A stretch of DNA of 64,000 nt, taken from positions 22,363 to 86,362 of the forward strand of contig JAZGHS010000212.1 in NCBI GenBank assembly GCA_036481315.1, read 5' to 3'. The notes below the pieces were generated by a model. That model was given only the letters and a program-made list of their open reading frames with translations, made no database searches and was not told the origin of the DNA. Of the stretch, positions 4,462-44,039 are shown piece by piece. The position numbers were made by a program, and so were the translations under genes. The first letter of the stretch is position 1, and every line of letters starts with the position of its first letter. The DNA comes from Candidatus Zixiibacteriota bacterium (GTDB lineage Bacteria; Zixibacteria; MSB-5A5; UBA10806).

Positions 4462-7158
4462 ATGGTTTCCAAGCTAAGGGTTACAACATTTGTATTCGCT
4501 GCGATTCTGACTTTAGTGATTATCGCAAATGCCCAACAAAGAACTTATGAAAATTCGGGAGGATCCGGCAACCTGATAACATCTGTTCCCAGGACGATGA
4601 CCTATCAGGGAATTCTAAAAGATAATGCCGGAGATCCTGTTCCCAATGAAGTGGTAAATATCACTTTTAGAATCTTCAACGACCCGTCAGCCGGAGATTT
4701 GATGTGGGATGACGCACTTTCTATATCCACCGATGACGGCGGGTATTTCATGGCTTCCCTGGTAAATTTGAATATTCCATTCGATGAGAATTACTACCTG
4801 GAATTACAGGTAGAGGGCGAATCACCCATGGCTCCGCGGATACCGCTCGATATGTCGGCATACGCCGCCCGATCAGATACCAGCGATTACGCTTTCGCCG
4901 GTGGCGGCTGGGTCGACGACGGTTTCACTGTCAGACTTCAATCATCTATCGACAATGTCGGTATCGGGACATCGAGCCCATCGAACAAACTGCATGTTGT
5001 CGGTTCCGAATCTGTTCCCATACTCAATGTCGAGCAAACAGGATCGTTCAGGGCGGCCCGGTTCTTCAGCCAGAATGCATGTGCCCTATGGGTTGAGAGC
5101 GCCGGAAACCACGGGTTAAGAATCACTAACGCAGGTGGAAATGGAGTTTATGTCCAGAATGCTGGCGGTGATGGCATAAATGTAGCTAACGCTACCGGCT
5201 GGGCCGGGTATTTCAACGGCACCGGGTATTTCGCAGGAAATTTAGGGATAGGTACGGAGACACCAGCGGAGATGCTCGATGTGGCGGGAAATCTATTAGT
5301 AAGCGGTAAAGCAACCATCGGCCCGGGTCATACTAATACCGGGACCAGCGCATTTGTTGCGGGTCAGGATAACACCGCAAGCAACCAATATGCCACTGTC
5401 GGAGGCGGCAGGAACAACGCCGCAAGCGGCCAATATGCTACGGTAAGCGGCGGCGAATATAATGCCGCCAATGGTGACTATTCCACAGTCGGCGGCGGAA
5501 CCTTTAATATCGTAACGGGCTATTTTTCTACAATCGCCGGAGGCGTGGAAAACACAGTCAACGGTGAAAGTCATTCAATCGCCGGAGGAAACATGAATTC
5601 TATTTCGGGGCCAACTGGATCCTTTATCGGCGCCGGATATAGTAATAACATTACGGTTTCGAACTCCTTCATCGGCGGCGGATATGATAATACCATTACG
5701 GGTTGGGACTCCTTCATCGGGTGCGGACGGTTAAACAGCATAAGCGGCCGGCAAAGTTCAATTCCGGGAGGTCAATTCAATGCTGTTGCGGGCAACCTTA
5801 GTTTTGCCGCCGGGTACCGGGCAAAAGCCAACCATAACGGCACCTTCGTCTGGGCCGACCAGACCGACGCGAATTTTGCCTCGACCGCCGCGGATCAATT
5901 CCTCATTCGGGCATCTGGCGGCGTCGGTATCGGGACAACGAGCCCGGACTATAGGCTGGATGTACAGGGTACTGTCGGAATCGATGTCGGTTCTTTTTCT
6001 GCTGACATTCCGCTGACTATTGAAGTTCCATCCGACCACTCTGCCTTGATCTCCCGTATCGCCAAAGGCGGAAACGTCATAAACGTGGTTGACGGCGATG
6101 GTAATGTGGGTATTGGAACCTTCACCCCCGCTGAGAAATTGGATGTCGTCGGTACGGCCCAGGTGACGGGCTTAAAGATGCCTACGGGTGCTTCGAATGG
6201 TTACGTTTTAACGTCAGATGCTTCGGGAGTAGGGACCTGGCAGGCGGCGGCAGGCGGCGGAATTGGCGGAAGCGGTACGGCTAATTACGTCCCCAAGTTT
6301 ACGGCCTCCACAACTCTCGGCAATTCGATGATCTACGATGACGGAAGCAATGTCGGAATAGGGACGATAGCGCCGAACCATACACTTGAGGTGGGAGACG
6401 GCTTTGGTACTCGGTTTATTGCTATCAACGGGCAAAGCGGCGGCATGTCGGGTTATAAATTGCTGGCCGCGGGAACTCAAAAATGGTTTATGGGCATGCC
6501 CGGAATCTCACAGCTGTATTTTCGAAATGAAACAAACAACGATATAATGGTTTTACGGCAGGACGGTAATGTTGGTATCGGTACGACAACGCCAAATCAT
6601 ACTCTTGAGGTAGGAGACGGCTTTGGTACTCGGTTTATTGCTGTCAATGGACAAAGTGGCGGCATTTCGGGATATAAATTGATGGCTGGAGGATCTCAGA
6701 AATGGTTTATGGGCTTGCCTGGAATCTCACAGCTATATTTCCGAAATGAGACAAACGATGATATAATGGTTTTACGGCAGGACGGTAATGTTGGTATCGG
6801 TACGACAACTCCGGATTACAAATTGGATGTACAGGGTTCTGTCGGTATTGATACTCGTCCATATTCCGGCAATATTCCATTGACCATCGATGTTCCGGCC
6901 GACCAGGATGCGCTGATCTCCCGTATCGCCAAAGGGGGAAGCGTAATTAACGTGGTTGACAAGGATGGCCAAGTCGGCATAGGTACATTCTCCCCTCAGG
7001 GCGCGTTGGACGTTAGTTCGACTACAGGAGCATTTATCGTTCCAAGAATGACCACTACTCAGCGAGATGCCTTGACCGCGGTAAACGGCATGATTATTTA
7101 CAACACCACGGCTAATCAATTCAATTTCCGTGAAAACGGGGCCTGGGTGACAAAATGA
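4462..7158 (+). CDS. large secreted repeat protein: YadA-head-like GG-x-N repeats, eight IGT-x-P...L[DE]V tail-fibre-like repeats, Bacteroidetes-type C-terminal motif
   Basis: Signal peptide. Repeats ATVGGGRNNAASGQYATVSGGEYNAANGDYSTVGGG...; eight copies of (N/G)VGIGTxxPxxxL(D/E)V; C-terminus VPRMTTTQRDALTAVNGMIIYNTTANQFNFRENGAWV. Confidence 0.6.
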   Translation: MVSKLRVTTFVFAAILTLVIIANAQQRTYENSGGSGNLITSVPRTMTYQGILKDNAGDPVPNEVVNITFRIFNDPSAGDLMWDDALSISTDDGGYFMASLVNLNIPFDENYYLELQVEGESPMAPRIPLDMSAYAARSDTSDYAFAGGGWVDDGFTVRLQSSIDNVGIGTSSPSNKLHVVGSESVPILNVEQTGSFRAARFFSQNACALWVESAGNHGLRITNAGGNGVYVQNAGGDGINVANATGWAGYFNGTGYFAGNLGIGTETPAEMLDVAGNLLVSGKATIGPGHTNTGTSAFVAGQDNTASNQYATVGGGRNNAASGQYATVSGGEYNAANGDYSTVGGGTFNIVTGYFSTIAGGVENTVNGESHSIAGGNMNSISGPTGSFIGAGYSNNITVSNSFIGGGYDNTITGWDSFIGCGRLNSISGRQSSIPGGQFNAVAGNLSFAAGYRAKANHNGTFVWADQTDANFASTAADQFLIRASGGVGIGTTSPDYRLDVQGTVGIDVGSFSADIPLTIEVPSDHSALISRIAKGGNVINVVDGDGNVGIGTFTPAEKLDVVGTAQVTGLKMPTGASNGYVLTSDASGVGTWQAAAGGGIGGSGTANYVPKFTASTTLGNSMIYDDGSNVGIGTIAPNHTLEVGDGFGTRFIAINGQSGGMSGYKLLAAGTQKWFMGMPGISQLYFRNETNNDIMVLRQDGNVGIGTTTPNHTLEVGDGFGTRFIAVNGQSGGISGYKLMAGGSQKWFMGLPGISQLYFRNETNDDIMVLRQDGNVGIGTTTPDYKLDVQGSVGIDTRPYSGNIPLTIDVPADQDALISRIAKGGSVINVVDKDGQVGIGTFSPQGALDVSSTTGAFIVPRMTTTQRDALTAVNGMIIYNTTANQFNFRENGAWVTK
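6349..6798 (+). repeat. tandem direct duplication, 2 x 225 bp (75 aa) at about 90% nucleotide identity, inside the 4462 CDS
   Basis: NVGIGTIAPNHTLEVGDGFGTRFIAINGQSGGMSGYKLLAAGTQKWFMGMPGISQLYFRNETNNDIMVLRQDG, immediately followed by a near-identical copy. Confidence 0.8.
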
Positions 7159-7219: not shown

Positions 7220-7801
7220 ATGAGAATCAAAACGTTAATTATGTTTCTATTCTTCAGTTCGGCGGCATTTGCTCAAAATTACTCCATAGACTGGTACGTT
7301 ATCGCCTCCGGCGGCGGGCATGCCGAGTCTGACAATTATCAGACCGATGGTACGATAGGTCAATGGTTGGTCGGGACCATGTCATCGCCTAATTATATCG
7401 TGGAATCCGGCTACTGGGTCGGCGGCCAGGGTGGTGGTGGTGGTGGATGTGGCTTTTATGTTACTGGCGATTACAACGGAAGCGAATCTTTCAACGTGGC
7501 GGATATTATCAGTTCGTTCTCGAAACTGAAGACCGGCTCCCCCGACGCGGCGTTGCCGTGCGAATGTCCTCAGGGTAGCGGCAATGTCTGGGCGGTGGCT
7601 ATGGATGTCAATAACACCTGCGCTTTCAACGTAGCCGATGTCATCGCTGGATTCTCCAAGTTGAAAACCGGGTCGCCCGAATTGATTCCCTGTGAGCTTT
7701 GTCCCCCCGATTCACCGTCGCCTATACAGCCCGGGAACGAGATTATTCTTATCGTCCCGAACTTAGAGGCCAAAACCGAATTAAACCGTTCAAGCGATTG
7801 A
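7220..7801 (+). CDS. small secreted protein with a Gly-run linker and a C-terminal Cys-containing dockerin-like module
   Basis: Signal peptide ending AFA. (GGT)5 microsatellite at 7430-7444. Module GDYNGSESFNVADIISSFSKLKTGSPDAALPCECPQGSGNVWAVAMDVNNTCAFNVADVIAGFSKLKTGSPELIPCELCPP. Confidence 0.6.
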   Translation: MRIKTLIMFLFFSSAAFAQNYSIDWYVIASGGGHAESDNYQTDGTIGQWLVGTMSSPNYIVESGYWVGGQGGGGGGCGFYVTGDYNGSESFNVADIISSFSKLKTGSPDAALPCECPQGSGNVWAVAMDVNNTCAFNVADVIAGFSKLKTGSPELIPCELCPPDSPSPIQPGNEIILIVPNLEAKTELNRSSD

Positions 7802-7847: not shown

Positions 7848-8522
7848 GTGGTGCGAGCAGTATTCTCGTCTCTTATAACCTATATTCTCGTTTTCGCCTC
7901 CATAGCTTCAGCCACGATCATTAAGGTCCCCGAAGACTACACTACGATACAGGATGGGATAGATATAAGCGTTAACGGCGATACGGTGATGGTAGCCCCC
8001 GGGATCTATAGCGGAAGCAGGAATAGAAATATCACGACAGCTGGAAAAGCGATTCTCGTAATGGGAGAGTTCGGGGCGTTAAATACGATTATCGATTGCG
8101 CGTTCGACCAAACCGGGTTTATCATATCCGATTCGGAGGGGGCCAATACAGTTATTGCCGGTTTTACCATAAAAAATTCATTAAAGGGAATTTTTTGTGA
8201 CGGTACCTCACCGACAATCAAATCATGCATATTCAACGATTTCTTCGCCTATGGCGTTCATGTTGACGGTTATTCCGGAGACCCCGCAGTTTCTCCAATA
8301 ATAGAGGATTGCATTTTCGAACAGGTAAGCAACGATTATTTCGGTTGGGGAGACGGTATATACGGATATCGCGCGGCGAATATTACAATTTCCGGATCAA
8401 AATTCGCCAGATGCGAACACGGCATGAATTATCACGCTTATAACAACTTAAGACCTTATTTCGATATAACCAAGTGCCTGTTCCGCAATATTACCGGCAA
8501 CGGCATCTGGACTCATTCGTGA
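7848..8522 (+). CDS. secreted right-handed beta-helix protein; probably the N-terminal part of a single gene continuing in 8547..9269
   Basis: GTG start and signal peptide. Beta-helix cap IIKVPEDYTTIQDGIDISVNGDTVMVAPGIYSG. Ends at a TGA that is in frame with the next ORF. Confidence 0.55.
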   Translation: MVRAVFSSLITYILVFASIASATIIKVPEDYTTIQDGIDISVNGDTVMVAPGIYSGSRNRNITTAGKAILVMGEFGALNTIIDCAFDQTGFIISDSEGANTVIAGFTIKNSLKGIFCDGTSPTIKSCIFNDFFAYGVHVDGYSGDPAVSPIIEDCIFEQVSNDYFGWGDGIYGYRAANITISGSKFARCEHGMNYHAYNNLRPYFDITKCLFRNITGNGIWTHS

Positions 8523-8546
8523 AACTCCCTTTCACCGACGGGTTCG

Positions 8547-9269
8547 GTGCAACATTGCGATTTTCTGAATATCGGAAGCTACGATTTCTATGCCGCCTCT
8601 TGCAGTGATCCGACAACCGTTATTACCGCCGAAAACAATTTTTGGGAGGCCACCGATTCGGTAACCATAGCCGACGAGCATATTTTTGATCATGGGGATG
8701 ACGATACAGCGCCAACTGTCGATTTTATGCCGTTCCTTGCAGAACAGGTATTCGGTTTTATAACAGGAACGGTAATCAACGAGAACTCCAACCCTATCGC
8801 CGAGGTGGAGGTTTCCGTCGAAGGTACGTTGAATAATACTTTCACCGATATCGACGGCGAGTATTTACTCGAGAATCTCTCAACCGGTTATTTCAATATT
8901 GTCTTCGCTCATCCCGATTACAGGGATTCTACCGTTTCAGAATTATTCATCTCAATAGGCGATACCGTAACCATGAACATGACATTACAGCCGCCCTGCC
9001 CGTATACACTCGGGGATTTTAACGGAAATGAAATTGTGAATATCGCCGATCTGATCGCCGCTTTTTCAAAGTTGAGAACCGGATCGCCGGAACCGGCCCT
9101 GGTATGCGAATGCCCCGTCGGGAGAGATGCCTGGATCGTGGTAATGGACGTTAACAACAGTTGCGAATTTAACATCGCCGACATCATATTATTCTTCTCA
9201 AAGCTGTCGACCGGCTCACCCGATCTTATACCGTGCGAACTTTGCCCCCCGCCGGGATGGGAACCGTAG
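8547..9269 (+). CDS. beta-helix continuation, carboxypeptidase-regulatory-like beta-sandwich, C-terminal Cys-containing dockerin-like module
   Basis: No signal peptide of its own. Same frame as 7848..8522. Module GDFNGNEIVNIADLIAAFSKLRTGSPEPALVCECPVGRDAWIVVMDVNNSCEFNIADIILFFSKLSTGSPDLIPCELCPPP. Confidence 0.55.
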   Translation: MQHCDFLNIGSYDFYAASCSDPTTVITAENNFWEATDSVTIADEHIFDHGDDDTAPTVDFMPFLAEQVFGFITGTVINENSNPIAEVEVSVEGTLNNTFTDIDGEYLLENLSTGYFNIVFAHPDYRDSTVSELFISIGDTVTMNMTLQPPCPYTLGDFNGNEIVNIADLIAAFSKLRTGSPEPALVCECPVGRDAWIVVMDVNNSCEFNIADIILFFSKLSTGSPDLIPCELCPPPGWEP

Positions 9270-19651: not shown

Positions 19652-21784
19652 ATGACAATTGAGACGGTCAATTACGATAACAGAATAGTTCGAAGTTTCG
19701 GTATCGCTACGCTGGTCTGGGGTTCGGTGGGGATGCTTGTCGGGGTGGTCATCGCCATACAGATGTTTTTTCCGGCTTTGAACCTCGGCCTTGCCTTTAC
19801 CACCTTCGGACGACTTCGCCCGCTTCACACCAACGCCGTAATTTTCGCCTTCGTGGGTAACGCCATTTTCATGTCGGTCTATCATTCCCTGCCGCGACTT
19901 TGCAAAGCCGAGATGTTCAATAAGGCCTTAAGTAAATTCCATTTCTGGGGATGGCAGGCAATTATCGTCGCCGCCACCCTGACCCTGGTAACGGGAATCA
20001 CCACCGGCAAAGAGTACGCCGAACTGGAGTGGCCGATCGATATCCTGATCGCGGTAGTCTGGCTCGCGTTTGGCGCGAACATGTTCGGAACCATTTTCAA
20101 ACGTAGAGAACAGCATATGTACGTGGCGGTCTGGTTCTATATCGCTACATTCATCACCGTTACGATCCTCCACGTAGTCAACTCGATCGAACTACCTGTA
20201 TCATTTTTAAAAAGCTATCCGGTCTATGCCGGCGTTCAGGACGCCCTAGTGCAATGGTGGTACGGCCACAACGCGGTCGCCTTCTTTTTAACAACTCCAT
20301 ATCTCGGCATGATGTATTACTACCTGCCCAAAGCGGCCAACAGGCCGGTCTTCTCCTACAGGCTTTCCATAGTCCACTTCTGGGCGCTCATATTTATCTA
20401 CATTTGGGCCGGACCGCATCACCTGCTCTACTCGGCAATCCCCGACTGGGTTCAATCATTGGGCACCGTTTTCTCCATCATGCTCATCGCGCCGTCGTGG
20501 GGCGGTATGCTTAACGGCCTGCTTACGTTACGCGGAGCGTGGGATAAGGTACGAACAAGCCATGTCCTGAAATTTATGGTGGTAGCGATTACCGCCTACG
20601 GCATGGCCACCTTCGAGGGGCCGATGCTCGCGTTGAAAAACGTAAACGCCCTCTCCCATTTCACCGACTGGACGATAGCCCATACACATGTGGGGGCGTT
20701 AGGATGGAACGGTTTTCTGACTTTCGGGATTTTGTACTGGCTTATACCTCGTCTGTACGGAACGAAACTGTATTCGGATAAAATGGCCAACGCTCATTTC
20801 TGGATCGGTTTTCTGGGCATTCTGATCTATGTGATACCAATGTATTTCGCCGGGATAATCGAGGGTTTGATGTGGAAAGAGTTCACTCCCGACGGTTTCC
20901 TGCGCTACCCTAATTTCCTTGAGACGGTGCTTCAGGTAATTCCGATGTATATCATCCGGGCTGTGGGCGGAACGCTCTTTTTAATCGGAATGCTGTTGAT
21001 GACATTCAATCTCTTCAAAACAATAAGACTGGGATCGCTTATAGCCGAGGAAAAGGTCGAAGTCCCCGCCCTGGAAAACAACCGCGAAGAAATATACAAT
21101 CGCCGCAATTTCCACAGGTGGATCGAGAGACGTCCGGTGAAGTTTATCCTGGCCGCCACGGTCGCGGTATTGATAGGCGGGATTGTCGAAATGGTTCCGA
21201 CCTTCTTGATAAAATCGAATATCCCGACCATATCAAGCGTGAAACCCTACACGCCGCTGGAACTTCAGGGAAGGGATATTTACATAGCAGAGGGATGCTA
21301 CAACTGCCATTCTCAAATGATCAGACCTTTCAGATCGGAAACCGAACGTTACGGCGAATATTCCAAAGCGGGTGAATATGTTTACGATCATCCGTTCCAA
21401 TGGGGATCTAAACGCACCGGCCCCGATCTGATGCGGGTGGGAGGTAAATACCCCGATGCCTGGCATTATGGCCACATGATCGATCCCCCCTCGATGTCGC
21501 CCGGTTCGATAATGCCGCCGTATCCGTGGCTTGCCAACAACGAACTCGATATCGGTTCCACTCCGGCAAAGATTAACGCGATGCGGAAACTCGGCGTACC
21601 CTATCCGGAAGGCTACGAGAATATAGCAATCGAGGATCTTAATTCCCAAGCCAGGCAGATTGTCGGTATTTTAGGCGAGGCCGGTATCGAAATAAAAACC
21701 GATAGACAGATAATCGCCCTTATCGCCTATCTGCAAAGGATGGGGACAGACATCAAAGTCCAGAGGGAAGGGGGAGCGCGATGA
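19652..21784 (+). CDS. ccoN: cbb3-type cytochrome c oxidase, fused subunits I and II (CcoNO)
   Basis: 710 aa. Haem-copper oxidase helices with conserved His. C-terminal CcoO moiety with CYNCHSQ and GPDL..VGGKY..WHYGHMIDP. Confidence 0.85.
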   Translation: MTIETVNYDNRIVRSFGIATLVWGSVGMLVGVVIAIQMFFPALNLGLAFTTFGRLRPLHTNAVIFAFVGNAIFMSVYHSLPRLCKAEMFNKALSKFHFWGWQAIIVAATLTLVTGITTGKEYAELEWPIDILIAVVWLAFGANMFGTIFKRREQHMYVAVWFYIATFITVTILHVVNSIELPVSFLKSYPVYAGVQDALVQWWYGHNAVAFFLTTPYLGMMYYYLPKAANRPVFSYRLSIVHFWALIFIYIWAGPHHLLYSAIPDWVQSLGTVFSIMLIAPSWGGMLNGLLTLRGAWDKVRTSHVLKFMVVAITAYGMATFEGPMLALKNVNALSHFTDWTIAHTHVGALGWNGFLTFGILYWLIPRLYGTKLYSDKMANAHFWIGFLGILIYVIPMYFAGIIEGLMWKEFTPDGFLRYPNFLETVLQVIPMYIIRAVGGTLFLIGMLLMTFNLFKTIRLGSLIAEEKVEVPALENNREEIYNRRNFHRWIERRPVKFILAATVAVLIGGIVEMVPTFLIKSNIPTISSVKPYTPLELQGRDIYIAEGCYNCHSQMIRPFRSETERYGEYSKAGEYVYDHPFQWGSKRTGPDLMRVGGKYPDAWHYGHMIDPPSMSPGSIMPPYPWLANNELDIGSTPAKINAMRKLGVPYPEGYENIAIEDLNSQARQIVGILGEAGIEIKTDRQIIALIAYLQRMGTDIKVQREGGAR

Positions 21785-39451: not shown

Positions 39452-40758
39452 CTTTTTTCTCCGCTTAAAATGTTTTTCCCCTCTTGTGAACTATTTATTT
39501 CAAGTAATAGATTTTTCGCTATGCTTTTCCACCTGGGGCGAAGCGAATATAACCCCGCGAGACGTAATAGCGCCGCCGCCCTCCACCAATTCACCCGTTT
39601 TGTAAATTCTTTACCCGCCGATTCGTAGCCGCTCACAAACGCTTCCGATCCGTCTATGATCATCATCTCGTTCTCGGGCGATTGATACCGTCGTAAATCC
39701 AAATGTGCCATGAAATTCCCATAATCTAAAGCCGGGTCGGATAAGGCCATGTTATCGAAATCGAGCAGGGTTGCCCGACCGGGAGAATGAAGAGTCTGTT
39801 TGTCGTAAAAATCGCGATGAACGGGCCCGACCGCATAATCATCGCCGATTCTTCCCCGCGTAATCCCCGAGTAGGCGTCGCCGAACGCCTCACCAAGTTC
39901 GGGAAAGACACTATTTATAATATCGACTATTTTACTCAAACTGTCAAGCTCGTCGTCGGCTGTGTAATAGGGCAGATCGCCTAACGAAATCGAATGCAGT
40001 TTGCGAATCAATCGTCCCGCTTCATGGCAGGATTCGGGAAAAGATCGATTTCCGATTAACGAATGCAAAGACCGACCCGAAACGAATTCCATGAGTATAA
40101 TCCCGTGATCATTATCGCAACCCAGATACTCCGGTACAGTCAAACCATCGGATGAATCCGCGGTCATTTCGGTTGCGGAAAACTTTTCGAAGATTTTCAA
40201 AGCAGCCGCGATCTTTTTAGGACGTGCTATTTTGGCGACAACCTTGATTCTCTCGATACCGTCATTTTGTTTCATATCAAGTGTATATTCGAACACGCAT
40301 CGACGTTCAAGACGGTAGCCAAGCAAACGGCATTCGATCACATCGAACTTTTTTCCCGCGAGAAAGGGAATCGCCCCAAGACGTTTTTTAGGTTTACCCG
40401 TGACAACAAAATCGGGAAGATATTTGAGTTTAGGATCGTAAGGGAATACAGGGACGACCAAACCTATATCATCGAATATTATGAGGTCTTGCCGAGGCGC
40501 TAATGTTTTACCGGGCAGTGTCTGATCAAGCCCCAGCAAGTGACCCCATAATATAATTTTCTCTTCGCCTTTTTCCGTCTTGTCTATTATCAAATTGTAA
40601 CTGATAGAAAATCCACCGTCATTCCGAGGGAAAGCCCTGGGGATATACAGATATTTCAATTCCCCTTCTTTTCCCAAAAATCGATCGATCTCCTTTTGAA
40701 AACGGGATTTCATCCGATCGATATCTGTCGCGGCTTTAAAATTAGAAACTATTCCCAT
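39448..40758 (-). CDS. APH/choline-kinase-fold phosphotransferase (kinase B)
   Basis: Catalytic loop GPVHRDFYDKQ and a DFD metal-binding motif (LLDFDNM); paralog of the upstream gene. Confidence 0.55.
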   Translation of the reverse strand: MGIVSNFKAATDIDRMKSRFQKEIDRFLGKEGELKYLYIPRAFPRNDGGFSISYNLIIDKTEKGEEKIILWGHLLGLDQTLPGKTLAPRQDLIIFDDIGLVVPVFPYDPKLKYLPDFVVTGKPKKRLGAIPFLAGKKFDVIECRLLGYRLERRCVFEYTLDMKQNDGIERIKVVAKIARPKKIAAALKIFEKFSATEMTADSSDGLTVPEYLGCDNDHGIILMEFVSGRSLHSLIGNRSFPESCHEAGRLIRKLHSISLGDLPYYTADDELDSLSKIVDIINSVFPELGEAFGDAYSGITRGRIGDDYAVGPVHRDFYDKQTLHSPGRATLLDFDNMALSDPALDYGNFMAHLDLRRYQSPENEMMIIDGSEAFVSGYESAGKEFTKRVNWWRAAALLRLAGLYSLRPRWKSIAKNLLLEINSSQEGKNILSGEKR

Positions 40759-42119
40759 TACGACTCCAGGATCTTCTTACATTCGGCCAAAATCGTTGTT
40801 ATGCCTTCCTTCCAATTCGGCTCCAGCCTGCGAAACGGTCCCACAGCCAGTTGATAAAGCCCGAAGGCTATCCAGAAATTTAGATTCGACATCTCAATAT
40901 CTTTAATCTCTTTATACGTCTTCAAAAAGATCGTTTCTATATCTTTCTCGCCGTCAAGCTCGCCTCTTAAGCGCAACAGCTTTATGTGAGCCAGGAAGTT
41001 CCCTATGTCGAATACAGTATCGCCCCGATGGGATCGGTCGAAATCCAGTATCGATACTTTTCTTGTACGACATAATACCTGGCCGTAATAAAAATCGCCG
41101 TGAACAAAACCGGGTTTATCCGCCGCCAGAGAGTGATTTTTTAATTCATCGAAAATAGTATCGGCCAGTTTCGCCTCGATGGGAAGTATTTTTGTCAGCA
41201 TTCTGCGGGTTTCCTCGGCGTCATCGATATAACTTGCCCGAGATTTCTCGCTCAACCCAGGGATATCAAAACCATGCATTGCCGCCAGCGCGATTGCCGT
41301 CTTCGATATATTAGCCGCGCGGTTATCGCCCTCGATACTCTCTAAAAATTGTTTCCCCCGCGCTTTTTCCATAATCAACGCTTTTCTTTCGGGCAAGTAT
41401 GTCAATGGACGCGGCGAAGTGAACAAACCGGAATCTTCCGAGAGCTTATGAATCTTCTCTTGCAACGAAAACAGAGCCGCGCCCCGATCGTCAGCGTAAA
41501 CCCTTATATACAACTTTAGCCATACCCATTTGCTAGTTTCCCTGTTCTTCGCTCTCGCTCTGCAACGAAGCACAACACGTCGTTCCGGCTTATATCTGAC
41601 CGTACTCAGACTGATCTGTCTATTCGAAATACGCCATTTATCTTCCGGGTATTGGTCATAGTTCTCGTATAAAATCCTCTGGATCTTTTTAAGATCGGAC
41701 AGGATGCGAAGACCGTCGATTAAACAATCGTTCGGATAAAAATAAAGGATAGTGGCGTGCTCGGGAAGAGTTATGTACGGCTCCAAATCGGGAATCGGAA
41801 TCCAGCGCGATGATGCCGCCTTGCGCGTGGCGTTTTCATAATCATCCTCAGTATATAATTTAGCGTAAAATAATATCTCTTTGGGTTCGCCGTCCTTTTC
41901 TAACTGAAGCTGATAAGCAACAATACAATTTGTACCTGGTTTATATCTTATATAGAGAATACGACATTCCTTTACAACGCCCACGCTTTCAGGAAGCAGG
42001 TCGGCCAATATCGAGCCGACATTTTCCGGAACCAACAACACCGAAAGCCCCGGAAGGCTGTCATCGACCGGAATGTCGTCCCTTTTAATTTTATCCGCGT
42101 AACGTTCGCTTTTTAGCAC
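40758..42119 (-). CDS. APH/choline-kinase-fold phosphotransferase (kinase A)
   Basis: GFVHGDFYYGQ and ILDFDRS; 1-bp overlap with kinase B. Confidence 0.55.
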   Translation of the reverse strand: MLKSERYADKIKRDDIPVDDSLPGLSVLLVPENVGSILADLLPESVGVVKECRILYIRYKPGTNCIVAYQLQLEKDGEPKEILFYAKLYTEDDYENATRKAASSRWIPIPDLEPYITLPEHATILYFYPNDCLIDGLRILSDLKKIQRILYENYDQYPEDKWRISNRQISLSTVRYKPERRVVLRCRARAKNRETSKWVWLKLYIRVYADDRGAALFSLQEKIHKLSEDSGLFTSPRPLTYLPERKALIMEKARGKQFLESIEGDNRAANISKTAIALAAMHGFDIPGLSEKSRASYIDDAEETRRMLTKILPIEAKLADTIFDELKNHSLAADKPGFVHGDFYYGQVLCRTRKVSILDFDRSHRGDTVFDIGNFLAHIKLLRLRGELDGEKDIETIFLKTYKEIKDIEMSNLNFWIAFGLYQLAVGPFRRLEPNWKEGITTILAECKKILES

Positions 42120-42176: not shown

Positions 42177-44039
42177 TCACTTATCCTCTAATTTTGCGTT
42201 CTTAGTTCCCTCTGGGATTTCTTCAGGAGGTTTAGCCGCCTCATTATCCAAATAATAATAAAACTCTCCTTTGCGCTTCAATAGTTCCTCGACGGTGCCC
42301 TGCTCGATTAGACGTCCGTCCTCGATATAAGCCGCCCAATCGGCAAGCTCCAGAAAATTCAATCTGTGTGTTATTATCAATAATGTCCGTCCCGGTTTCA
42401 ACGCTCTCAACGCCTCTATGGCTCCCTTCTCGGAGTGAATATCGAGGCCGGTGGCCGGCTCGTCGAAAATCATAATAGGAGAATTTTTCAACGCCGCCCG
42501 GGCGAAACTTATCCTCTGACGCTGTCCACCGGATAAAGTATCGCCGCCCTCGCCCACCAACGTCTCATATCCTTCCGAAAACTTCTCGATGAAACCATCG
42601 GCGCCCACAAGACGAGCGGCCTCTTCGATCTCCTCCCTGGTTGCCCCCGATTTACCGAAAGATATATTCTCCTCGATTGTCGTACGAAATAAAAAAGAAT
42701 CCTGGGTCAAGCTGGTAACCCGTTTACGAAGAGATCGGATTCTATATTCGCCGATATCACGCTTATCGATATATATCGCCCCCGCCTGTGCTTCGTACAA
42801 TCGAAGTAAAAGCTTGGCGATTGTGGATTTTCCGGCCCCAGTCGAGCCGATCAAGACCGTGGTCTTGCCCGCCGGGATAAACAGATTCATCCCTTTAAGC
42901 ACTTCGTTGCCGTCGATATAAGAAAAATATACGTCTTCGAATTTAATATTGCCTTTTATTCTCTTAGCCGATTTCGCGCCGGGATGATCCTCGACCTCAG
43001 GATGGATATCCAGTATCTCCATAATCTTCTCGCCGCGTACTATCGCTTTCGATGTCCGAGCCGAAAGGCTGGCAACCGTGCGTATAGGACGATATATACC
43101 GCGAAGATATGTAACGAAAATAATCAGATCGCCCGGCGAAATATTTCCCTCTAACGCTTTATGCGCCCCGATCAATAATACTATTCCGGTACCAACCGCG
43201 GTTACAATCTCAACCACCCTGGCGTAATTGGCGGCGAGTTTTGTGGTTCTGAGATTGGCCCTGAAATCGCTCGAAATCGATTTGCCTATCAACTTTTCCC
43301 GGATCTTTTCCTGGGCGAATGCTTTCACCTGGCTTATCCCCGAGATCGATTCCTCCATGGAGGCCACCATCTTGCCATACTTTTCGCGTTGACGATTGGC
43401 CGCGCTTTTTATTCTCCCTGTAAACTTAAAGGCGGCGATTACGAATAATGGCATAACCGCTAGAATCAATAGCGCTAATTGCCAGTCTAAAAAGAAAGCT
43501 ACCGAAAGCATCCCGAATATGAGAACAAATTGACCCACCAGGCGAATCAGGGTCTCTACCATCAAATCCTGCAAGAGGTTTATATCGCCGGTAAGCCTGG
43601 TGATGATTTCTCCGGTCTCACTGTAATCGTGATATGATTGCGGTAACCGTTGTACATGAGAGAAAAGCTGAAGCCGTATGGCGGCCAGTACCGCATGGCC
43701 TACCGTCTTGGCCCAGACGCTTTGAGCGTACTCGAGCGAACTGCTTATCAGGGCCATGGAAAGAATCGACCCGGCGGCGAGGAAAATCACGGTCATCGGA
43801 TCCCAACCCTTCAGGGGATTTAAAAACGAGATATCCGATGCTCGATCCGGCATTAACGCATAATCAAAAATAATTTTCAACGGCCACGGACGCAGAAGGG
43901 TCATTGCCGACATACCCAGTAACGCGAACGTGCTTAAGATCAGCTTGCCCTTGTGTGGTTTCAGATGCACGGCAAAATGGGATATCACCCTTCGTAATGA
44001 GCCAAAATCGATTTTAGCAAGTCCGTATTTTATTTTCAT
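42177..44039 (-). CDS. ABC exporter, fused TMD-NBD (MsbA-like lipid/glycolipid flippase type)
   Basis: 6 TM helices; Walker A GSTGAGKST; signature LSGGQRQRISFARA; Walker B IMIFDE. Confidence 0.8.
   Translation of the reverse strand: MKIKYGLAKIDFGSLRRVISHFAVHLKPHKGKLILSTFALLGMSAMTLLRPWPLKIIFDYALMPDRASDISFLNPLKGWDPMTVIFLAAGSILSMALISSSLEYAQSVWAKTVGHAVLAAIRLQLFSHVQRLPQSYHDYSETGEIITRLTGDINLLQDLMVETLIRLVGQFVLIFGMLSVAFFLDWQLALLILAVMPLFVIAAFKFTGRIKSAANRQREKYGKMVASMEESISGISQVKAFAQEKIREKLIGKSISSDFRANLRTTKLAANYARVVEIVTAVGTGIVLLIGAHKALEGNISPGDLIIFVTYLRGIYRPIRTVASLSARTSKAIVRGEKIMEILDIHPEVEDHPGAKSAKRIKGNIKFEDVYFSYIDGNEVLKGMNLFIPAGKTTVLIGSTGAGKSTIAKLLLRLYEAQAGAIYIDKRDIGEYRIRSLRKRVTSLTQDSFLFRTTIEENISFGKSGATREEIEEAARLVGADGFIEKFSEGYETLVGEGGDTLSGGQRQRISFARAALKNSPIMIFDEPATGLDIHSEKGAIEALRALKPGRTLLIITHRLNFLELADWAAYIEDGRLIEQGTVEELLKRKGEFYYYLDNEAAKPPEEIPEGTKNAKLEDK

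What the first reader, a model, noticed from the sequence alone, without database searches (positions are those of the whole stretch)
8490..8560. In-frame TGA splits a single beta-helix/dockerin-like gene, with a stable hairpin 10 nt downstream
ORFs 7848..8522 and 8547..9269 are in the same frame, separated only by TGA and 8 sense codons (NSLSPTGS). The first has the signal peptide but no C-terminal domain; the second has the secretion-dependent dockerin-like tail but no signal peptide. They therefore look like one ~473-aa gene. Immediately after the TGA lies a perfect 6-bp hairpin CACCGA-CGGGT-TCGGTG, at about 8532-8548, the spacing where bacterial SECIS or readthrough-stimulating structures sit. 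TGA is an ordinary stop elsewhere in the window, so the options are programmed readthrough or Sec, a recent nonsense mutation (pseudogene), or an assembly error.
Basis: partly seen in the sequence, partly recalled or inferred. Interest (0 to 1): 0.6.

Follow-up and report, generated by a model that had tools for sequence, protein, structure and literature searches.

The report
Candidate selenocysteine codon in secreted beta-helix protein
The "stop" that splits this gene is kept, with a small RNA hairpin just after it, in every relative found, so it most likely encodes selenocysteine in one 473-residue secreted beta-helix protein, a type absent from a 2026 catalogue of 119 bacterial selenoprotein families.

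Summary
ORFs 7848-8522 and 8547-9269 share a frame, separated by TGA (8520-8522) and 8 sense codons. A 6-bp/5-nt-loop hairpin lies at 8533-8549, 10 nt after the TGA.

On this sequence alone the hairpin is not above chance. Comparison makes it significant:
- About 25 protein clusters of the N-terminal half (39-67% identity among the 21 aligned) all end at the same residue.
- In 10 distinct orthologous DNAs, including two complete Zixibacteria genomes, the codon is always TGA and the spacer is always 10 nt but variable in sequence.
- The hairpin always pairs (60/60 cells), with A-U / G-U / G-C covariation.
- It is the most conserved stretch of the gene at third codon positions (rank 1 of 438).
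- The GTG "start" of the second ORF is GCG in 4 of 10. In the complete genomes the next in-frame start is 69 codons downstream.

Assembly error, recent pseudogene and two separate genes are therefore excluded. The hairpin meets the published bacterial SECIS geometry. A related beta-helix family with a T9SS tail has its own conserved TGA and hairpin.

Best reading: a new selenoprotein family (confidence 0.75). Not shown: Sec machinery in the host, any Cys homologue, or the chemistry of the Sec residue.

The parts
7848..8519 (+). N-terminal coding segment of the single gene, residues 1-224: signal peptide plus right-handed beta-helix coils. NCBI starts it at the second GTG, 7851.
   Evidence: ORF list and translation. 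Pfam Beta_helix PF13229 at 40.2 bits against a cut-off of 25.9. The AlphaFold2 model has pLDDT 91.7, is a parallel beta-helix, and ends inside a strand with no C-terminal cap. Generic beta-helix glycanase/lyase fold matches. It equals MEE9554971.1.
7848..7913 (+). Putative Sec-pathway signal peptide (MVRAVFSSLITYILVFASIASA|TII).
   Evidence: By inspection of the translation. No signal-peptide predictor was available. The equivalent hydrophobic N-termini occur in 20 of the 21 family members aligned; P0047 was called from a later start.
8520..8522 (+). In-frame UGA, proposed selenocysteine codon (residue 225). It is preceded by an invariant His at -2 and by an NCG codon.
   Evidence: TGA in 10 of 10 distinct orthologous DNAs. 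21 aligned protein clusters end exactly here.
8523..8532 (+). 10-nt spacer between the UGA and the hairpin. It is variable in sequence and constant in length.
   Evidence: Alignment A7. Codon +2 shows only synonymous Ser changes (TCC/TCT/TCA) in one clade.
8533..8549 (+). SECIS-like hairpin: 5' arm 8533-8538, loop CGGGU 8539-8543, 3' arm 8544-8549.
   Evidence: 60 of 60 cells paired. Stem pair 2 is AU x5, GC x4, GU x1; pair 6 is AU x6, GU x4. RNAalifold predicts the same helix independently. It is the top-ranked of 438 six-codon windows for third-position identity, 0.874 against a median of 0.44. The geometry fits the bSECIS model quoted in PMC13188914.
8523..9269 (+). C-terminal coding segment (residues 226-473) ending at TAG 9267-9269. 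NCBI calls it a separate protein starting at GTG 8547.
   Evidence: Translation. Protein conservation begins directly after the TGA. No conserved start codon. It equals MEE9554972.1.
8760..8990 (+). CarboxypepD_reg (Ig-like) domain.
   Evidence: Pfam PF13620, E = 4.4e-14, residues 80-156 of the C-terminal segment.
8997..9266 (+). Cys-rich two-repeat dockerin-like C-terminal module, probably a surface-anchoring or assembly module.
   Evidence: Coordinates. 65% identical to the tail of the neighbouring ORF 7220-7801. The same tail is found on unrelated enzymes P0003-P0007. Weak profile match to X-module-dockerin chains 4WI0/4U3S. No Pfam dockerin hit.

Best explanation
Window 7848-9269 is one gene for a ~473-residue secreted protein: signal peptide, right-handed beta-helix, CarboxypepD_reg domain, dockerin-like tail. 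Codon 225 (UGA, 8520-8522) is decoded as selenocysteine. Inferred mechanism: the 17-nt hairpin that starts 10 nt after the UGA acts as a bacterial SECIS element. When the ribosome reaches the UGA, the hairpin is held just outside the mRNA entrance. SelB-GTP-Sec-tRNA(Sec) binds its G-rich apical loop (CGGGU) and delivers Sec in competition with RF2. Translation then continues through the rest of the beta-helix and the C-terminal modules. Without selenium or SelB, translation would end in a 224-residue helix fragment with no C-terminal cap, which is probably non-functional. Shown here: conservation of the UGA, of the spacing and of the hairpin with covariation; coding continuity; absence of a second start codon. 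Inferred: that the decoder is SelB/Sec, and what the Sec does. Its position next to an invariant His (H-S/A-U) in an enlarged turn suggests a catalytic or metal/chalcogen-binding site on a polysaccharide-active or binding beta-helix.
For: (1) About 25 clusters (at 90% identity) of the N-terminal half are all 202-225 aa long, most of them 222-225. The 21 that were aligned (39-67% identity to the window's protein) all end at the same residue...[WY]xH[SA].
(2) Ten distinct orthologous DNAs from ENA, JGI, Logan and NCBI assemblies all carry TGA there. They include the complete genomes CP070742.1 and CP070813.1. With TGA at 35% of stops in this window, a freely varying stop would be all-TGA with p ~3e-5 if the lineages were independent.
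(3) The spacer is always 10 nt but varies in sequence. The hairpin pairs in 60 of 60 cells, with an A-U/G-U/G-C series at one pair and A-U/G-U at another, at the price of Thr-to-Ala and Val-to-Ala changes in the protein.
(4) The hairpin codons are the most conserved in the whole gene at third positions, rank 1 of 438 windows.
(5) The geometry meets the published bSECIS model: loop 5 nt (allowed 3-9), stem 6 bp (allowed 4-16), G at loop position 2 followed by G, and 16 nt from UGA to loop (allowed 16-37).
(6) The second ORF has no conserved start. The GTG is GCG in 4 of 10 orthologues, and the next in-frame start is at codon 69 in both complete genomes, although the 68 codons in between are conserved protein.
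(7) The N-terminal half alone models as a beta-helix that stops inside a strand.
(8) A related family (L018-L021, L051, L107) has its own conserved in-frame TGA (SG-U-G-x-x-C). A covarying 7-9 bp hairpin places its loop 17-20 nt after that TGA. The frame then continues for 335-555 codons to a T9SS sorting domain, which needs the upstream signal peptide.
(9) TGA is a normal stop in the window, so this is not genome-wide reassignment.
Against: No Sec machinery (selA, selB, selC, selD) could be looked for in any host genome. None lies in the 64-kb window, which also has no tRNA, and no paper on Sec use in Zixibacteria was found. No Cys-containing or otherwise unsplit close orthologue was found in 5.8 billion proteins, so the classical Sec/Cys homology criterion is unmet. 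The hairpin is short and only -6.5 to -7.5 kcal/mol on its own, borderline for the <= -7.5 criterion, and sits at the minimum allowed distance. No Rfam SECIS family matches. The local sequence has no UxxC/CxxU redox motif. A fused-protein structure could not be computed.
Confidence: 0.75

Rival explanations
1. SelB-independent programmed readthrough. The conserved hairpin slows or remodels termination at the UGA, so that a near-cognate or suppressor tRNA inserts a standard amino acid. This would give a mixture of a short protein and a full-length protein.
For: The conserved UGA, hairpin and frame continuity are equally required by this model. No Sec machinery and no Cys homologue were demonstrated.
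Against: From general knowledge, no hairpin-stimulated readthrough system of this kind is established in bacteria, whereas UGA plus a hairpin at this spacing with a G-rich loop is the signature of Sec. The short product would be a beta-helix cut inside a coil, and in family 2 also cut in mid-repeat, so a functional short isoform is unlikely. The loop sequence is invariant (CGGG[U/C]) rather than only the stem, which suggests a sequence-specific binder.
Confidence: 0.1
2. Two genuine adjacent genes. The conserved hairpin would be an intergenic regulatory element (translational coupling, RNA processing or attenuation) that overlaps the GTG start of the second gene.
For: Gene callers and NCBI annotate two genes, MEE9554971.1 and MEE9554972.1. 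In 6 of 10 orthologues a GTG lies in the 3' arm of the hairpin.
Against: The GTG is GCG in 4 of 10 orthologues. In the two complete genomes the first in-frame start is 69 codons downstream, yet the intervening codons are conserved protein sequence with invariant C, D, P, N and W residues. There is no Shine-Dalgarno-like sequence upstream of the GTG. The stop is never TAA or TAG. The second product would carry a secretion-dependent tail (T9SS CTD in family 2) without a signal peptide. The first product would be an uncapped half helix.
Confidence: 0.04
3. Translational bypassing (T4 gene 60-like hop) from the TCG before the UGA to the TCG in the 3' arm of the hairpin, skipping 27 nt.
For: In the window and most orthologues, the codon before the UGA (TCG) is repeated 27 nt downstream, just before GTG/GCG, with a hairpin inside the gap.
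Against: L016 has GCG before the UGA and no matching GCG landing codon. The gap is in frame, never contains a second stop and never changes length. Its second codon shows synonymous-only variation within one clade, as expected if it is translated. Family 2 has no matched codon pair.
Confidence: 0.02
4. Artefact or decay: an assembly or sequencing error, or a recent nonsense mutation (pseudogene).
For: A single in-frame stop in an otherwise intact gene is what either would look like in one sequence.
Against: The same TGA at the same position occurs in 10 distinct orthologous DNAs from independent projects and assemblers. Both halves are under purifying selection at 42-68% amino-acid identity.
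Confidence: 0.01

Closest known systems
Bacterial SECIS elements (consensus bSECIS model; prototype E. coli fdhF)
   Same: A stem-loop inside the coding sequence, immediately 3' of an in-frame UGA. [quoted passage not shown] From memory, unchecked here: the minimal fdhF element is a 17-nt upper stem-loop placed 11 nt after the UGA with a GGUC loop. Here the hairpin is 17 nt, placed 10 nt after the UGA, with tip GGGUUC.
   Different: No bulged U. It is very short and of marginal stability (-6.5 to -7.5 kcal/mol). There is no match to any Rfam family. SelB binding is untested, and the host's SelB is unknown.
Catalogued prokaryotic selenoprotein families (119 families/subfamilies, Table 1 of PMC13188914)
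   Same: A single Sec encoded by a conserved UGA followed by a SECIS-like hairpin. [quoted passage not shown] Family 2's local SG-U-G resembles the 'SGUG' motif listed for selenobacteriocin.
   Different: No listed family has a right-handed beta-helix, NosD or Pel9A-like domain. There is no thioredoxin fold and no UxxC/CxxU motif in family 1 (H-S-U-x11-C). No Cys-form homologues were found. NCBIfam has no model for it.
Right-handed parallel beta-helix proteins (Pfam Beta_helix PF13229, NosD PF05048, Pel9A-like PF22842; GH87, PL6, PL9 enzymes)
   Same: Pfam hits above threshold. A high-confidence beta-helix model. Best fold matches are GH87 alpha-1,3-glucanase, PL6 chondroitinase/alginate lyase and Pel9A. 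It has the typical secreted multi-domain architecture.
   Different: The matches are generic (11-16% identity, E about 1e-3 to 1e-4), so no catalytic residues can be transferred. No member of these families is known to contain Sec.
X-module-dockerin dyads of cellulosomal scaffoldins (PDB 4WI0, 4U3S)
   Same: An Ig-like module followed by a duplicated Ca-loop-like segment (GDFNGNExxNIADL / MDVNNSCEFNIADI). Weak profile match at E ~1e-3.
   Different: No Pfam dockerin hit. The tail is Cys-rich (CxC...C...CxxC) and ends in PCELCPPPG. It appears to be a lineage-specific module shared by many Zixibacteria surface proteins.
Phage T4 gene 60 translational bypass
   Same: A stop codon directly after a potential take-off codon, a hairpin in the gap, and a matching codon downstream in most orthologues.
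   Different: The matched codons are not conserved (L016). The gap is in frame and behaves as coding sequence. Rejected.

Membership tests
Bacterial selenoprotein gene (Sec-UGA + bSECIS) | In-frame UGA conserved at the same position across diverged orthologues, never TAA or TAG | tested here: met
   10 of 10 distinct DNAs have TGA. 21 aligned clusters end at the same residue.
Bacterial selenoprotein gene (Sec-UGA + bSECIS) | Protein-coding conservation continues in frame downstream of the UGA, with no independent start | tested here: met
   Alignments A4 and A6. The GTG is absent in 4 of 10 orthologues; the next start is at codon 69 in the complete genomes.
Bacterial selenoprotein gene (Sec-UGA + bSECIS) | Stem-loop with a 3-9 nt apical loop and a 4-16 bp upper stem | tested here: met
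   5-nt loop and 6-bp stem, conserved with covariation. Criteria taken from PMC13188914.
Bacterial selenoprotein gene (Sec-UGA + bSECIS) | G in one of the first two loop positions, usually followed by G or U | tested here: met
   The loop is CGGGU, or CGGGC in L102; G at positions 2-4 is invariant.
Bacterial selenoprotein gene (Sec-UGA + bSECIS) | 16-37 nt between the UGA and the apical loop | tested here: met
   16 nt (10-nt spacer plus 6-nt arm) in all 10 sequences, which is the lower limit. Family 2: 17-20 nt.
Bacterial selenoprotein gene (Sec-UGA + bSECIS) | Minimum free energy <= -7.5 kcal/mol | tested here: inconclusive
   Hairpin alone: -6.5 to -7.5. The 45-52 nt after the UGA: -7.4 to -13.8.
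Bacterial selenoprotein gene (Sec-UGA + bSECIS) | Homologues with Cys aligned to the Sec position | tested here: not met
   No unsplit close orthologue was found. The nearest unsplit homologues diverge before the junction. This criterion is supportive rather than obligatory.
Bacterial selenoprotein gene (Sec-UGA + bSECIS) | Host genome encodes selA, selB, selC (tRNA-Sec) and selD | not testable with these tools
   None is in the window. The literature was silent.
Bacterial selenoprotein gene (Sec-UGA + bSECIS) | Selenium incorporated into the protein (75Se labelling or mass spectrometry) | not testable with these tools
   Requires an experiment.
Right-handed parallel beta-helix (Pfam PF13229) | Profile match above the gathering score, and a beta-helix fold | tested here: met
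   40.2 bits against a cut-off of 25.9. The AF2 model has pLDDT 91.7 and is all-beta coils. Beta-helix PDB matches.
NosD (TIGR04247 / PF05048) | Equivalog-level score to NosD | tested here: not met
   TIGR04247 gives 14.7 bits against a cut-off of 300. PF05048 is just above threshold at 24.9 against 23.6, so this is generic repeat similarity only.
Dockerin (PF00404) | Pfam dockerin profile match | tested here: not met
   No hit at E <= 0.1. Only a weak X-Doc match in PDB, E = 1.4e-3.
T4 gene 60-type bypass | Identical take-off and landing codons flanking a non-coding gap | tested here: not met
   L016 has GCG before the UGA and no GCG landing codon. The gap is in frame and coding-like.
Ordinary two-gene operon | Conserved start codon and ribosome-binding site for the downstream ORF | tested here: not met
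   GTG changes to GCG in 4 of 10 orthologues, and there is no SD-like sequence upstream.

The most novel reading that the evidence does not exclude
The lineage lacks the Sec machinery, and the conserved 17-nt hairpin with its invariant CGGGU loop drives a SelB-independent recoding of UGA in secreted beta-helix proteins: programmed readthrough, or insertion of another residue by an unknown factor. That would be a kind of bacterial recoding signal not described so far.
Probability: 0.07. Interest if true: 0.85.

Novelty: new member of a known kind. Interest (0 to 1): 0.58.

Why it matters
If confirmed, this adds a selenoprotein family of a kind missing from the current 119-family catalogue: a secreted, surface-anchored right-handed beta-helix protein rather than a thioredoxin-like or metallo-redox enzyme. 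No Cys-form relatives were found, and a sister family has acquired Sec at a different point of the helix coil. That would widen what selenocysteine is thought to be used for, for example extracellular or periplasmic chemistry on polysaccharide-type scaffolds. It would also imply Sec use in Zixibacteria and related T9SS-bearing lineages. Practically, public annotation splits these genes in two (MEE9554971.1/MEE9554972.1, UCE65787.1, UCC80030.1), so the family is invisible to homology-based selenoproteome surveys. The compact, nearly invariant 17-nt SECIS at a fixed 10-nt distance would be a convenient minimal element for studying SelB recognition.

Tried and rejected
- Rfam scan of 8300-8800 at E <= 10: only chance hits (CRISPR-DR20, a snoRNA), no SECIS family.
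- NCBIfam: no specific family for either half.
- A longer alternative structure that pairs CUGGACUC with GGGUUCGG and puts the UGA in a stem is not conserved. The upstream arm differs in L014, L016 and L104.
- Bypass model with matched TCG codons: rejected because of L016.
- Other same-frame TGA-split ORF pairs in the window: only 42177-42179, which is an ordinary ABC-transporter/APH gene pair. There is no second copy of the hairpin in the window.
- The genome-contig scan and the metagenome-contig scan picked generic N-terminal motifs and returned only distant beta-helix genes. They still yielded two more in-frame-TGA cases, L045 and L051.
- The exhaustive representative search with the N-half profile was swamped by giant multi-repeat beta-helix proteins and found no unsplit orthologue.
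- HMM and regex searches of all retrieved proteins for a residue aligned with the Sec position: nothing reliable.
- The C-half model was unusable (pLDDT 41, 3-sequence alignment).
- Literature searches for Sec use in Zixibacteria or for beta-helix selenoproteins returned nothing relevant.
Full report
**1. The observation**

- ORF 7848..8522 (224 aa) and ORF 8547..9269 (240 aa) are in the same frame.
- They are separated by TGA at 8520-8522 and eight sense codons, AAC TCC CTT TCA CCG ACG GGT TCG (NSLSPTGS).
- The inverted repeat CACCGA/TCGGTG with loop CGGGT lies at 8533-8549, one base to the right of the estimate, and begins after a 10-nt spacer.
- TGA ends 14 of the 40 large ORFs in the window (TAA 19, TAG 7), so it is a normal stop in this organism.
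- The first ORF starts with a signal-peptide-like segment (...FASIASA|TII, by inspection) and matches Pfam Beta_helix (40.2 bits, cut-off 25.9).
- The second ORF matches CarboxypepD_reg (E = 4e-14). It ends in a Cys-rich, internally duplicated tail that Pfam does not recognise.

Taken alone the hairpin is weak. It is -6.9 kcal/mol, and the local fold is no better than shuffled sequence (z = +0.3). Nothing in the single sequence proves function.

**2. What relatives show**

- A search with the fused protein found an ENA contig (L001) whose orthologue has ~59% amino-acid identity. It has the same two ORFs, the same 24-nt gap and a TGA at the same codon.
- Profile searches then returned about 25 clusters (at 90% identity) of the N-terminal half. 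The 21 that were aligned have 39-67% identity to the window's protein, and most are 222-225 residues long.
- All 21 end at the same position with ...[WY]xH[SA]. The His two residues before the end is invariant.
- One cluster is the window's own protein, MEE9554971.1, from a candidate division Zixibacteria MAG. Its neighbour MEE9554972.1 is annotated as a separate protein.
- No unsplit close orthologue exists in the 5.8-billion-protein collection. The nearest unsplit homologues (P0002, P0095, P0096 and others, about 35-45% identity in their best local alignment to the query) diverge before the junction.

I fetched DNA for ten distinct orthologues: window, L001, L013, L014, L016, L017, L102, L103, L104 and L105. 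L102 and L103 are from the complete Zixibacteria genomes CP070742.1 and CP070813.1. In all ten:
- the codon is TGA;
- the codon before it is NCG;
- exactly 10 nt follow, and they differ in sequence (AACTCCCTTT, GGTTCTCTTT, CACCAGGCTT, ...);
- then comes a 6-bp hairpin with loop CGGG[U/C].

Four hairpin variants occur: CACCGA...TCGGTG, CGCCGG...TCGGCG (with loop CGGGT, or CGGGC in L102) and CGCCGA...TCGGTG.
- All 60 pair cells are standard pairs.
- Stem pair 2 is A-U in five sequences, G-C in four and G-U in one, the classical compensatory path.
- Stem pair 6 is A-U in six and G-U in four.
- RNAalifold predicts the same helix without being told.
- The compensating changes cost amino-acid replacements (Thr to Ala, Val to Ala), so the RNA pairing is being preserved rather than the peptide.
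- In a codon alignment of the whole gene, the six codons forming the hairpin have the highest third-position identity of all 438 six-codon windows: 0.874 against a median of 0.44.

**3. Explanations that fall**

- Assembly error and recent pseudogene are excluded. The same TGA occurs in independent assemblies from four sources, with both halves under purifying selection.
- A freely evolving stop would vary. With TGA at 35% of stops here, ten independent TGAs would have p ~3e-5. The lineages are not fully independent, so this is only indicative.
- Two separate genes are excluded.
  - The GTG at 8547 is GCG in four of the ten orthologues.
  - In both complete genomes the next in-frame ATG/GTG/TTG is 69 codons downstream, although those 68 codons are conserved protein with invariant Cys, Asp, Pro, Asn and Trp.
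  - No Shine-Dalgarno-like sequence precedes the GTG.
  - The second product would carry a surface-targeting tail without a signal peptide.
  - The first product, modelled with high confidence (pLDDT 91.7), is a beta-helix that simply stops inside a strand, with no C-terminal cap.
- A gene 60-like hop between the TCG before the UGA and the TCG in the 3' arm is contradicted by L016, which has GCG with no matching landing codon. The gap also keeps constant length in frame, and the second gap codon shows synonymous-only variation in one clade.
- A longer alternative structure that buries the UGA in a stem is not conserved.
- Genome-wide reassignment of TGA is excluded by ordinary TGA stops.

**4. 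Best explanation**

A conserved in-frame UGA followed at a fixed distance by a small conserved hairpin inside the coding sequence is the signature of bacterial selenocysteine insertion. The consensus bSECIS model quoted in a 2026 review (PMC13188914) sets these criteria:

| Criterion | Model | Observed here |
|---|---|---|
| Apical loop length | 3-9 nt | 5 nt |
| Upper stem | 4-16 bp | 6 bp |
| G in first two loop positions, usually followed by G or U | required | CGGGU |
| Distance from UGA to loop | 16-37 nt | 16 nt, the minimum |
| MFE | <= -7.5 kcal/mol | -6.5 to -7.5 hairpin alone; -7.4 to -13.8 with flanks: borderline |

From memory, not checked here: the minimal E. coli fdhF SECIS is likewise a 17-nt stem-loop, 11 nt after the UGA, with a GGUC loop.

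I therefore propose that 7848-9269 is one gene. SelB carrying Sec-tRNA(Sec) binds the hairpin tip and inserts Sec at codon 225. The 473-residue product is exported and displayed through its C-terminal module. That the decoder is SelB/Sec is inferred, not shown.

**5. A second family**

More distant N-terminal halves are about 190-208 aa long and end ...N-x-x-S/G-G (P0054-56, P0058, P0063, P0097, P0108, P0120). DNA was fetched for four of them (P0054, P0058, P0097, P0108), and there they are also truncated by a conserved TGA.
- The context is SG-U-G-[AS]-x-C-G-G-I-Y-C.
- The frame then continues for 335-555 codons through more beta-helix coils to a T9SS C-terminal sorting domain.
- A 7-9 bp hairpin (UGCGGUGG-GAU-CUACUGCA) follows, placing the loop 17-20 nt after the UGA. 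It shows a U-A to C-G double change in L051 and one-sided changes in L107; 31 of 32 cells are paired.
- The hairpin is built from the codons of the helix's own C-G-G-I-Y-C repeat motif, which suggests how easily such an element could arise.
- The Sec lies at a different point of the coil than in family 1. In family 1 it follows the G-I-W strand; in family 2 it precedes the G-G-I strand.

**6. What the protein is**

- The N-terminal model matches solved beta-helix glycanases and lyases only generically: GH87 alpha-1,3-glucanase, PL6 chondroitinase/alginate lyase and Pel9A, at 11-16% identity and E about 1e-3 to 1e-4.
- NosD similarity is far below the family threshold.
- The C-terminal part weakly resembles X-module-dockerin dyads, 4WI0 and 4U3S.
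- The tail itself is 65% identical to that of the neighbouring ORF 7220-7801. It recurs on sialidase-, peptidase- and PKD-type proteins of Zixibacteria, so it is a lineage-specific surface module.
- The role of the Sec is unknown. It sits beside an invariant His in an enlarged turn. There is no UxxC/CxxU motif in family 1, whereas family 2 has UxxxC.

**7. Comparison with what is known, and limits**

The review's catalogue of 119 prokaryotic selenoprotein families contains no beta-helix, NosD or Pel9A-like family. NCBIfam has no model for it, and public annotation splits the gene. I found no paper linking Sec to beta-helix proteins or to Zixibacteria.

The mechanism would be the known one. The family would be new, hence 'new member of a known kind'.

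Three things are missing.
- The host's selA/B/C/D genes could not be examined.
- No Cys homologue was found.
- The fused structure could not be predicted, and the C-half model was unusable.

If the closed genomes turned out to lack Sec machinery, the same data would indicate a SelB-independent hairpin-driven recoding. I consider that unlikely (~0.07), but it would be far more novel.

**Verdict**

Confidence that this is a selenoprotein gene is 0.75. Interest is 0.58.

Noticed in passing
window 7220-7801 (+): A 193-aa ORF directly upstream, with no Pfam hit. It has a signal-peptide-like start, a Gly run, and the same Cys-rich two-repeat dockerin-like tail as the target gene (65% identity over 84 aa). 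The same tail occurs on sialidase-, peptidase-M1- and PKD-type proteins (P0003-P0007), so it looks like a Zixibacteria-specific C-terminal surface module.
   Followed up: partly
L018:869, L020:3607, L051:482, L107:3571 (also L019, L021, L108): A second, related beta-helix family with its own conserved in-frame TGA (SG-U-G-x-x-C-G-G) and a covarying hairpin. The frame continues for 335-555 codons to a T9SS sorting domain. It is annotated everywhere as two genes.
   Followed up: partly
L045:1101-1103: Another beta-helix gene with a single in-frame TGA (GFTIQN*HAYSGGGILC...), after which 464 codons continue in frame. Only one sequence is available and the hairpin is unclear, so it could be a third Sec site or a pseudogene.
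   Followed up: no
window 4462-7158 (+): An 898-aa secreted protein with a long internal tandem duplication (...NVGIGTTTPNHTLEVGDGFGTRFIA.NGQSGG.SGYKL...FRNETN.DIMVLRQDGNVGIGTTTP... appears twice). Pfam hits are only weak.
   Followed up: no
window 42177-42179 (- strand): A TGA between an ABC-transporter gene (42177-44039) and an APH-like kinase gene (40758-42119), which happen to share a frame. They are ordinary adjacent genes with unrelated domains and no hairpin copy.
   Followed up: yes
window 19652-21784 (+): The cbb3-type oxidase subunits CcoN (COX1) and CcoO (FixO) are fused in one 710-aa ORF, followed by FixP-, FixH- and DsbD_2-family genes. This implies microaerobic respiration in the host.
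   Followed up: no
window 8517-8519 and all orthologues: The codon before the UGA is always NCG (TCG nine times, GCG once), and the His at -2 is invariant in 21 clusters. It is unclear whether the constraint acts on the RNA context of the UGA or on the protein.
   Followed up: partly
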